IMG/VR virus record: IMGVR_UViG_3300038393_000245 | Span: 140,289-173,592 of that record | From: a virus | Lineage: Duplodnaviria; Heunggongvirae; Uroviricota; Caudoviricetes | DNA length: 33,304 nucleotides | Direction: 5' to 3' (one strand) | In this document: positions 16,561 to 16,660 of the stretch, in pieces | Numbering within the stretch: the first letter of the stretch is position 1 | How the letters are laid out: every line of letters starts with the position of its first letter | Notes under the pieces: generated by a model | What the model was told of the DNA's origin: nothing | Database searches by the model: none | Seen by the model: the letters and a program-made list of their open reading frames with translations, nothing else | Translations under genes and position numbers: made by a program

Positions 16561-16660
16561 CAGGTTCCAGGGTTTGCAACCGGAATTGAACCGGCAACTT
16601 CAGTTTAAAAGACTGACGTGCTACCATTGCACTATGCTATTGTTTTGCTGAAAGGAACCT
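16561..16660 (-). ncRNA. Y-RNA-like element E1 carrying a tRNA-Lys(UUU) D/anticodon/T body without acceptor end
   Basis: Closing stem AGGTTCC/GGAACCT plus TTTCAGCAA; D-arm GTGC-AATGGTA-GCAC, TCAGT-CTTTTAA-ACTGA, GCCGG-TTCAATT-CCGGT; acceptor only about 3 bp, no CCA. Confidence 0.75.

What the first reader, a model, noticed from the sequence alone, without database searches (positions are those of the whole stretch)
16561..16660. E1: tRNA-Lys(UUU) body grafted onto the Y-like stem instead of an acceptor end
E1 has D-arm, a complete Lys anticodon arm (TCAGT-CTTTTAA-ACTGA; anticodon 16607-16609) and T-arm in normal tRNA order. The acceptor stem is reduced to about 3 bp (GCA/TGC), there is no CCA, and the shared AGGTTCC/GGAACCT plus UUCAGCAA module closes the RNA. 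This non-permuted design differs from YrlA. Established: tRNA-Lys(UUU) is the substrate of host anticodon nucleases PrrC and PARIS AriB. Inference: an unchargeable Lys-anticodon decoy held by the Ro-like protein, or a tRNA caught being converted into a Y-like RNA. Annotation tools would probably call it a pseudo-tRNA.
Basis: partly seen in the sequence, partly recalled or inferred. Interest (0 to 1): 0.78.

Follow-up and report, generated by a model that had tools for sequence, protein, structure and literature searches.

The report
tRNA look-alike on Ro-like handle
E1 is a real, conserved phage small-RNA gene: an almost complete tRNA whose amino-acid-accepting end is replaced by the "handle" shared by the RNAs around a Ro60-like protein gene. 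It is most likely a tRNA mimic displayed by that protein, not a working or lysine-specific tRNA.

Summary
Window 16561-16660 (minus strand) holds a D arm, a full anticodon arm (CUUUUAA, anticodon at 16607-16609), a variable loop and a T arm in normal tRNA order. The acceptor helix has only 3 bp and there is no CCA. The RNA is closed by a 7-bp helix plus UUUCAGCAA.

The same closing module sits on four other RNAs around a DUF2828/DUF7788 gene whose predicted fold is Ro60.

About 20 distinct RNAs of this non-permuted design occur beside homologous genes on other viral contigs, with strong covariation in all five helices. So it is neither a decaying pseudo-tRNA nor a tRNA caught in conversion.

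The lysine-specific decoy reading is weakened:
- The nearest orthologues read UUC and UUU.
- Other copies read UUA, UGU, UCU, UCC, GCA and UCA.

However, the 7-nt anticodon-type loop is always kept. In one clade (UCU) it is invariant while the stems change. A quarter of the cargo-less "mini" members carry only an anticodon-like hairpin.

Best reading: a Y-RNA-like partner RNA that presents a tRNA elbow and anticodon arm.

This scan has noted the handle family on many other genomes. I found it neither in Rfam nor in the papers searched.

The parts
16654..16660 (-). 5' strand of the closing helix P1 (AGGUUCC)
   Evidence: Pairs perfectly with 16562-16568. All 7 pairs are kept in 18 homologues, 6 of them with changes on both sides.
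16645..16653 (-). Handle motif UUUCAGCAA, directly 3' of P1
   Evidence: Shared by E2-E5. Orthologues read UUGCAGCAA or UUACAUCAA. CAGCAA is found in 121 of 133 unique handle elements.
16638..16644 (-). 5' spacer AACAAUA between the motif and the acceptor
   Evidence: Read from the sequence. In L001 and L051 the equivalent stretch pairs with the 3' spacer and extends the acceptor to 7-9 bp with one A-A mismatch.
16635..16637 (-). Acceptor remnant, 5' strand (GCA)
   Evidence: Rfam tRNA model positions 5-7. The 3-bp helix covaries (GC, UA, AU) and is invariant in the window clade.
16618..16632 (-). D arm (GUGC-AAUGGUA-GCAC)
   Evidence: All 4 pairs show changes on both sides among homologues.
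16600..16616 (-). Anticodon arm UCAGU-CUUUUAA-ACUGA; anticodon UUU at 16607-16609
   Evidence: The stem is 100% paired in 19 sequences, with changes on both sides at all 5 pairs. The anticodon varies among homologues.
16596..16599 (-). Variable loop AGUU
16579..16595 (-). T arm (GCCGG-UUCAAUU-CCGGU)
   Evidence: The T loop is invariant in the window clade.
16576..16578 (-). Acceptor remnant, 3' strand (UGC); no discriminator or CCA follows
   Evidence: 33 of 34 tRNAs of the same genome encode CCA.
16569..16575 (-). 3' spacer AAACCCU
   Evidence: It aligns to the AAcCCUu stretch of the Dictyostelium Class I RNA model.
16561..16568 (-). 3' strand of P1 (GGAACCU) plus the trailing G
17546..19063 (-). 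Presumed protein partner: a 505-aa DUF2828 + DUF7788 protein with a Ro60-like fold and a vWA DxSGS site
   Evidence: Pfam. PHROG 850 'RNA-binding protein'. AlphaFold2 mean pLDDT 78.7. Foldseek top hits are Ro60/TROVE structures. D284-V-S-G-S288 is invariant.
16458..16550 (-). E2, a neighbouring handle RNA with permuted tRNA-like cargo, 10 nt downstream of E1
   Evidence: The E1-E2 tandem with 10-11-nt spacing is kept in L001 and L003.

Best explanation
E1 is a stable non-coding RNA of the 'CAGCAA-handle' family. Its members are the likely partner RNAs of the phage's Ro60-like DUF2828/DUF7788 protein, much as Y RNAs are partners of Ro60.

The handle is a 7-bp terminal helix with UUNCAGCAA bulged on its 5' strand, and it is presumably the protein-binding site. 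In E1 the handle continues into the remnant of a tRNA acceptor stem. The protein would therefore hold an otherwise complete tRNA body by the end that is normally aminoacylated, leaving the elbow (D and T loops) and a canonical anticodon arm exposed.

The RNA cannot be charged or decode. It acts as a tRNA mimic offered to some factor that recognises the elbow and anticodon arm. I split the sub-mechanism roughly equally between two options:
- a bait or competitive decoy for host enzymes that cut or modify anticodon arms;
- a tether that brings a tRNA-handling enzyme to the Ro-like ring.

Shown here: the structure, its conservation and covariation, its linkage to the gene, and the Ro60-like fold.

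Inferred: binding to the protein, the stability and ends of the RNA, and the target of the mimicry.
For: - Structure: the tRNA model matches at 55.7 bits over positions 5-66 only, and the fold recovers P1 and all three arms.
- Not a working tRNA: a 3-bp acceptor, no CCA against 33 of 34 genuine tRNAs with encoded CCA, and no ARAGORN call. The genome already has a normal tRNA-Lys(UUU), and E1's body is not a copy of it.
- Shared handle: five RNAs within 3 kb around the gene, all on its strand. A strict scan finds 159 handle elements on the gene strand of 81 homologous loci and 21 on the opposite strand.
- Recurrent design: model R1 finds full-length matches of 40-81 bits with handle, 3-bp acceptor, and D, anticodon and T arms on about 20 distinct contigs. 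They spread over most branches of the protein tree.
- Covariation: 98.6% paired, 22 of 24 pairs with changes on both sides, slid controls 33-45%.
- The anticodon arm is a displayed module. The loop keeps 7 nt with U33 and a purine at 37 in nearly all copies. It is invariant (0 of 7 columns) in the UCU clade, where the D stem varies in 8 of 8 columns and the V loop in 4 of 5. 12 of 48 mini handle RNAs carry only a 5-bp hairpin with a 7-nt anticodon-type loop, against 0.29 expected from shuffles.
- Protein: Ro60/TROVE structures are the top fold matches over the full length.
- Literature: a preprint reports that Bas63 gp130, a Ro60-shaped protein upstream of that phage's tRNA genes, counters the Ppl defence (PMC11482910). 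Felix O1 encodes a 39.7%-identical homologue of the window's protein, followed by four handle RNAs. I did not test whether gp130 belongs to this family.
Against: - No experiment or RNA-seq shows that E1 is made, what its ends are, or that the protein binds it.
- Pfam does not call the protein TROVE, and there is no sequence match to any solved structure.
- No RNA of the E1 design was found within 5-7 kb of the gene in the ten cultured phages sampled. The design is known only from metagenomic contigs, and it makes up only about a tenth of handle RNAs.
- The covariation alignment was fitted to the model and includes a few ordinary tRNAs.
- Some orthologues (L001, L051) have a 7-bp acceptor with one mismatch and might be cut by RNase P, as happens with M. 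smegmatis YrlA (PMC4201824).
Confidence: 0.62

Rival explanations
1. Lysine-specific decoy. E1 soaks up anticodon nucleases that attack tRNA-Lys(UUU), such as PrrC or PARIS AriB, and so protects host and phage tRNA-Lys.
For: - The loop CUUUUAA is that of a tRNA-Lys(UUU).
- UUU is the commonest anticodon among RNAs of this design (window, L001, L022, L038, plus the mini L025:200).
[quoted passage not shown] UUU and UGU are among the three commonest loops in my sample, beside UCU.
- Several copies (L022, L038, minis) carry the exact U36-AAUCA41 stretch that AriB cuts.
Against: - The closest orthologue reads UUC, and others read UUA and UGU. Within the window clade the anticodon changes as fast as the average site.
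- Other clades fix UCU, UCC, GCA or UCA. UUA and UCA match no ordinary host tRNA.
- The window's own E1 has A39 and U41 (UAAACU). It shares A39 with the AriB-resistant T5 tRNA-Lys, and U39-to-A abolishes cleavage.
- The host and its defences are unknown (soil metagenome).
Confidence: 0.1
2. Decaying pseudo-tRNA or passenger. A tRNA gene was trapped between the two strands of a handle and is drifting; only the handle matters.
For: - Cargo is interchangeable in the family: none, a hairpin, a permuted tRNA part, or 200-nt RNAs.
- The anticodon is not fixed in the window clade.
- The element lies in a tRNA-rich region.
Against: - All three arms and the 3-bp acceptor keep pairing through compensatory changes.
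- The T loop and acceptor are invariant in the window clade, and the anticodon loop is invariant in the UCU clade.
- The body is not a recent copy of any tRNA in the genome.
- The design recurs on about 20 contigs.
Confidence: 0.1
3. Precursor of a working tRNA. The handle is a leader-trailer clamp that is removed, and the body is matured, given CCA and charged.
For: - M. smegmatis YrlA is cut by RNase P and receives CCA (PMC4201824).
- ARAGORN calls the L001 and L034 orthologues tRNAs.
Against: - The window and L003 have only 3 acceptor pairs and no possible 7-bp alternative.
- There is no CCA, although the genome's tRNAs encode it.
- A normal tRNA-Lys(UUU) already exists.
- Anticodons UUA and UCA occur in orthologous positions.
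Confidence: 0.04
4. A cis-acting processing or stability element of the polycistronic tRNA/mRNA transcript, for example a punctuation signal for RNase P, E or Z, that does not depend on the Ro-like protein.
For: - E1, E2 and tRNA-Pro lie 10 and 23 nt apart, and E5 starts 7 nt after tRNA-Gly.
- The 10-11-nt spacing is kept in L001-L003.
- No promoter or terminator of its own was seen.
Against: - Handle RNAs follow the DUF2828 gene across very different phages, including Felix O1 and RSP15.
- A full, covarying tRNA body with an anticodon arm is more than a punctuation mark needs.
Confidence: 0.08

Closest known systems
YrlA-type Y RNAs of bacteria and mycobacteriophages, bound by Ro60/Rsr (Chen et al. 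2014, PMC4201824)
   Same: - A small RNA encoded beside a Ro60-shaped protein.
[quoted passage not shown]
- The rest mimics tRNA, with canonical D and T arms.
   Different: - YrlA has the order T arm, capped acceptor hairpin, D arm, with the Ro-binding helix in place of the anticodon stem. E1 has the normal order D, anticodon, T, with the helix in place of the acceptor end.
- The motif is UUNCAGCAA, not GNCGAAN0-1G.
- No Rfam family other than tRNA and, weakly, Class I matched the region even at E up to 10.
- The protein is DUF2828/DUF7788, not Pfam TROVE.
Deinococcus radiodurans Yrn1 (as modelled in PMC4201824)
   Same: According to that paper, Yrn1 differs from YrlA in the orientation of the T and D arms relative to the 5' end, and it has an 'anticodon arm' with a 5-bp stem between them. 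This is the same topology as E1.
   Different: - Yrn1 has a 6-nt loop, no variable arm, and only partial D-loop features.
- E1 is a near-perfect cloverleaf at 55.7 bits to the tRNA model.
- The handles differ.
Dictyostelium Class I RNAs (Rfam RF01414; PMC7919456)
   Same: - A 6-7-bp helix joins the ends.
- An 11-nt motif lies next to the 5' strand, with the invariant U3, C6, C9, A10 and A11 all present (CCUUUCAGCAA here).
- The Rfam model aligns E1 end to end, including AAACCCU and the trailing CUG on the 3' side.
   Different: - The score is 18.8 bits against a gathering score of 41.5.
- Class I RNAs are 42-65 nt, eukaryotic, carry no tRNA body, and have their own promoter element.
- Their known direct binder is an RRM protein.
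Nuclease-resistant phage tRNAs, for example T5 tRNA-Lys(UUU) against PARIS (PMC11464382, PMC12409363)
   Same: - A phage-encoded RNA with a Lys(UUU) anticodon loop.
- E1 shares the A39 change that blocks AriB cleavage.
   Different: The T5 tRNA is a complete, chargeable tRNA that replaces the cut host tRNA. E1 has no usable acceptor end.

Membership tests
Canonical tRNA (Rfam RF00005) | D, anticodon and T arms in cloverleaf order with conserved loop residues | tested here: met
   55.7 bits against a gathering score of 29.
Canonical tRNA (Rfam RF00005) | 7-bp acceptor stem joining the mature 5' and 3' ends | tested here: not met
   The match covers model positions 5-66 only. There are 3 pairs, GCA/UGC, and the flanks do not pair. 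ARAGORN does not call it.
Canonical tRNA (Rfam RF00005) | Free 3' end with discriminator and CCA | tested here: not met
   UGC is followed by AAACCCU and then the closing helix. 33 of 34 tRNAs in the same genome encode CCA.
Canonical tRNA (Rfam RF00005) | Aminoacylation and decoding | not testable with these tools
   Needs an acid-urea Northern blot or charged-tRNA sequencing.
YrlA (Y RNA-like A) | Match to the Rfam covariance model | tested here: not met
   No such match in 15900-19600 or 16440-16680 at E up to 10.
YrlA (Y RNA-like A) | GNCGAAN0-1G motif in the Ro-binding region | tested here: not met
   E1 contains no CGAA. UUUCAGCAA takes the motif's place (the motif is as given in PMC4201824).
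YrlA (Y RNA-like A) | Permuted order: T arm, capped acceptor hairpin, D arm | tested here: not met
   The order is D, anticodon, T. E2 and E3 of the same window do have the permuted order.
YrlA (Y RNA-like A) | Encoded next to a Ro60 (TROVE + vWA) gene | tested here: inconclusive
   The neighbouring protein has a Ro60-like fold (TM 0.55, E 5e-8). Pfam assigns DUF2828 and DUF7788, not TROVE.
CAGCAA-handle RNAs (unnamed family; absent from Rfam and from the papers searched) | 7-bp covarying terminal helix with N3-CAGCAA directly after its 5' strand | tested here: met
CAGCAA-handle RNAs (unnamed family; absent from Rfam and from the papers searched) | Lies near, and on the strand of, a DUF2828/DUF7788 gene | tested here: met
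   E1 starts 886 nt downstream of the gene's stop, on the same strand. The arrangement is syntenic in L001-L003.
CAGCAA-handle RNAs (unnamed family; absent from Rfam and from the papers searched) | Bound by the DUF2828 protein | not testable with these tools
   Needs RIP, CLIP or gel-shift.
Dictyostelium Class I RNA (RF01414) | Rfam gathering score | tested here: not met
   18.8 bits against 41.5.
Dictyostelium Class I RNA (RF01414) | Terminal 6-bp helix plus an 11-nt motif with invariant U3, C6, C9, A10 and A11 | tested here: met
   CCUUUCAGCAA has all five invariant residues (the criteria come from PMC7919456).

The most novel reading that the evidence does not exclude
The handle RNAs form a display set of tRNA parts mounted on a Ro60-like ring and used by phages against tRNA-targeting immunity.

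The parts on display in this window:
- E1: a whole body with its anticodon arm.
- E2 and E3: the acceptor/T/D top half.
- E4: a bare anticodon stem-loop.

In E1-type RNAs the anticodon loop would be the business end. Each phage lineage would fix the loop of the tRNA that its host's nuclease attacks. This would explain three observations:
- The loop is invariant in the UCU clade while the stems change.
- UUU, UGU and UCU dominate.
- Many copies carry the exact U36-AAUCA41 stretch cut by PARIS AriB.
Probability: 0.25. Interest if true: 0.85.

Novelty: new variant of a known kind. Interest (0 to 1): 0.66.

Why it matters
Ro60/Y-RNA particles are known from animals, some bacteria and a few phages, but what the tRNA-like part of bacterial Y RNAs does remains open.

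E1 shows a second way of building such an RNA. A nearly intact tRNA is held by its acceptor end, so the anticodon arm is exposed. It is attached to a handle and a protein family (DUF2828/DUF7788) that I did not find described in the papers searched, apart from one preprint on a Ro60-shaped Bas63 protein.

The protein family is present in 710 phage records, including Felix O1, KVP40 and P100. A preprint reports that Bas63 gp130, a Ro60-shaped protein that may belong to this family, overcomes a bacterial defence.

If the mimic is a bait for tRNA-directed enzymes, it would be a new class of phage counter-defence RNA. It would also make the function of tRNA mimicry in Y RNAs testable. In addition, such elements are mis-annotated, or missed, as pseudo-tRNAs.

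Tried and rejected
- **RNA evidence.** The look-up of sequencing runs listed one DNA holder, a soil metagenome that may be the source, and no RNA holder. No reads were laid.
- **Sequence match of the protein to solved structures.** Nothing below E 0.05.
- **RNA repair genes in the genome.** RtcB was not found. The Rnl1 search had no working control and is uninformative.
- **E1-type RNAs in cultured phages.** None was found within 5-7 kb of the gene in Felix O1, Ci1, S13, RSP15, KVP40, BUCT-ZZ01, DLP_6, RHph_I1_18, Milchi or OC. blastn of the region against 50,697 phage records found no E1 homologue.
- **Own promoter or terminator for E1.** The consensus scan gave nothing above shuffled expectation.
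- **Class I RNA partner protein.** I asked whether the unnamed Dictyostelium Class I-binding protein DDB_G0281243 is a DUF2828 protein. The only paper naming it gives no domain. The AlphaFold DB searches hid organisms or did not list it. The question is unresolved.
- **First handle scan.** It was too permissive (446 against 373 on the control strand) and was replaced by a strict one (159 against 21).
- **Neighbouring ORFs.** ORFs 16736-17254, 16078-16326 and 15150-15872 have no Pfam match up to E 1 and no PHROG match up to E 1e-5.

Full report
**What is there**

On the minus strand, window 16660-16561 reads as follows:
- a 7-bp helix strand, AGGUUCC;
- UUUCAGCAA;
- a 7-nt spacer;
- GCA;
- a D arm;
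- the anticodon arm UCAGU-CUUUUAA-ACUGA;
- a 4-nt variable loop;
- a T arm;
- UGC;
- a 7-nt spacer;
- GGAACCU, which pairs with the first strand.

The Rfam tRNA model matches 16576-16637 at 55.7 bits (E 1.4e-9), but only from model position 5 to 66. Three acceptor pairs remain. ARAGORN finds four ordinary tRNAs in the window and skips this one.

The minimum-energy fold gives the closing helix and all three arms (z = -2.65).

**Not a working tRNA**

- The whole genome (173.6 kb, one contig) has 34 ARAGORN tRNAs. Thirty-three of them encode CCA. E1's UGC is followed by AAACCCU and then the closing helix.
- A normal tRNA-Lys(UUU) with a 7-bp acceptor and CCA exists elsewhere in the genome.
- E1's body is not a copy of that gene. 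Its best local match in the genome is tRNA-Trp.

**The surroundings**

UUCAGCAA occurs five times on the minus strand between 16535 and 19334, each copy 3 nt after a 6-7-bp strand whose complement closes the element. The five RNAs flank ORF 17546-19063, and their cargo differs:
- E2 and E3: a permuted T-hairpin-D module.
- E1: the non-permuted tRNA body.
- E4: one hairpin.
- E5: about 200 nt.

The ORF product has these properties:
- Pfam assigns DUF2828 + DUF7788, and it falls in PHROG 850 'RNA-binding protein'.
- A vWA-type D-x-S-G-S site is invariant.
- It has no sequence match in the PDB.
- An AlphaFold2 model (mean pLDDT 78.7) matches Ro60/TROVE structures over its full length. The matches include the Ro60 of Thermus phage phiLo (TM about 0.55, E 5e-8) and the Ro60 proteins of mouse, human, frog and Deinococcus.

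So 'Ro-like' holds at the level of fold.

**Relatives**

- The protein has relatives on 263 viral contigs and in 710 phage records. These include Felix O1, KVP40, Listeria P100 and mycobacteriophages.
- E1 has clear orthologues in the three closest contigs, in the same order: gene, E3-like RNA, E1, then E2 10-11 nt later, then tRNAs.
- A covariance model built from the window, L003 and L001 (R1) finds full-length matches of 40-81 bits on many further contigs. These carry handle, motif, short acceptor, and D, anticodon and T arms.
- After removing duplicates and ordinary tRNAs, there are about 20 distinct RNAs of this design.
- They make up about a tenth of the 133 unique handle elements found by the strict scan. 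That scan gave 159 hits on the gene strand and 21 on the control strand.
- On a tree of the proteins they appear in most major branches, but not in every close relative.
- On 19 aligned sequences, 98.6% of cells pair, against 33-45% in slid controls. 22 of 24 pairs change on both sides, including the 3-bp acceptor. The alignment is model-fitted and holds a few ordinary tRNAs, so the figures lean high, but the margin is large.

**The anticodon**

It is not, across the family:
- Window: UUU.
- L003 (85% identical): UUC.
- L001: UUU.
- L034: UUA.
- L025: UGU.
- L002: UCU.
- L010, L051 and L066: UCC.
- L012: GCA.
- L015 and L016: UCA.

In the window clade the anticodon changes at the average rate (1 of 3 columns), while the acceptor (0 of 6) and T loop (0 of 7) are fixed.

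The arm, however, is not decaying:
- The stem is paired in every copy through compensatory changes.
- The loop nearly always has 7 nt, with U33 and a purine at 37.
- In a second clade of five sequences (L094, L103, L122, L104, L095) the loop CUUCUAA is invariant, while the D stem varies in 8 of 8 columns, the V loop in 4 of 5 and the T stem in 5 of 10.
- Among 48 'mini' handle RNAs, 12 carry just a 5-bp hairpin with an anticodon-type 7-nt loop, against 0.29 expected from shuffles with a maximum of 3. E4 of this window, with loop UUUGCAU, is one of them.

So displaying an anticodon-type stem-loop is a recurring and apparently selected theme. The identity of the triplet is lineage-specific, and in E1's own lineage it is loose.

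**Against Lys-specific nuclease decoying**

[quoted passage not shown] U39-to-A abolishes cleavage, and the resistant T5 tRNA-Lys reads UAAACC (PMC12409363). E1 reads UAAACU, so it carries the resistant A39. Some relatives (L022, L038 and several minis) read UAAUCA exactly. This is a lead and not evidence, because such stems are common in bacterial tRNA-Lys and tRNA-Thr and the host here is unknown.

**Comparison with what is known**

- **YrlA** (PMC4201824) shares the logic: a terminal helix with a 5'-strand motif, a tRNA-like domain, and a gene beside Ro60. It differs in motif (GNCGAAN0-1G), strand order and protein family. No Rfam model other than tRNA and, weakly, Class I reported a match.
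- **D. radiodurans Yrn1**, as modelled in the same paper, has E1's topology with a cruder 'anticodon arm'.
- **The Rfam Dictyostelium Class I model** aligns E1 end to end at 18.8 bits, below its threshold. The alignment covers both the CCUU-CAGCAA side and the AAACCCU-helix-CUG side. The five residues invariant in Class I RNAs are all present.
- **Function of the protein family.** A preprint reports that Bas63 gp130, a Ro60-shaped protein upstream of that phage's tRNA genes, counters the Ppl defence, and it guesses that some of the 'tRNAs' next to it are Y RNAs (PMC11482910). Felix O1 encodes a 39.7%-identical homologue of the window's protein. It carries four unannotated handle RNAs right after that gene. 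I did not test whether gp130 belongs to this family.

**Earlier notes of this scan**

Earlier notes describe the handle family and its Ro-like gene on many other genomes, mostly with permuted cargo. I checked the points I reuse myself. I found no description of the RNA family in Rfam or in the papers searched.

**Verdict**

E1 is real and conserved. It is best read as a Y-RNA-like partner RNA that presents a tRNA body by its acceptor end. The Lys-specific reading is weak. A broader reading, in which the RNA is an anticodon-arm bait, is open and testable.

Noticed in passing
window 15995-16070 (-): A complete tRNA with anticodon CUA (amber-suppressor type, with encoded CCA). The same gene is present in the three closest contigs, L001-L003.
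   Followed up: partly
window 19056-19112 (-), E4: The only cargo of this mini handle RNA is a 5-bp hairpin with loop UUUGCAU, which has the form of an Ala(UGC)-type anticodon loop. 12 of 48 minis in related loci have such loops (CUUGUAA four times, plus CUUUUAA, CUGAAAU and others), against 0.29 expected.
   Followed up: partly
L094:473-575, L103:325-424, L122:1166-1263, L104:1661-1758, L095:69-165: A clade of E1-type RNAs with the invariant anticodon loop CUUCUAA (Arg UCU type), although the D stem, V loop and T stem differ in most columns.
   Followed up: yes
own genome G000:C1:20324-20372 (-), outside the window: A sixth handle RNA (49 nt, AUUCAGCAA) sits inside the main tRNA cluster between tRNA-Pro and tRNA-Glu, 136 kb from the Ro-like gene.
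   Followed up: no
L081:8704-9536 (Salmonella phage Felix O1, NC_005282 about 23872-24704): Four unannotated handle RNAs with UUACAGCAA lie among the tRNA genes just after the Ro-like gene. The last one carries a permuted tRNA-like module.
   Followed up: partly
L082:7030-7143 (Citrobacter phage Ci1); L083:6848-7090 (Cronobacter phage S13): GenBank annotates 113-121-nt 'tRNA-OTHER', pseudo or over-long tRNA-Ser features directly downstream of the Ro-like gene. They are probably handle RNAs with tRNA-like cargo. My strict motif scan did not pick them up.
   Followed up: no
window 16736-17254 (-): A 172-aa ORF between E3 and E1 has no Pfam or PHROG match. The E3-to-E1 gap in L003 (225 nt) and L001 (425 nt) is too short to hold it, so it looks like a lineage-specific insertion.
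   Followed up: partly
window 16458-16660 (-); L001:6140-6335; L003:5955-6152; L002:6571-6884: Handle RNAs stand in tandem with a constant 10-11-nt spacer. Each ends with CCUG followed by A or U, like the CUGU end of Class I RNAs. This suggests a common 3'-end processing site.
   Followed up: no
own genome G000:C1:98275-98358 (-): This is the only ARAGORN tRNA call (Tyr GUA) without an encoded CCA, and it lies far from both tRNA clusters. It may be a false call or another tRNA-like element.
   Followed up: no
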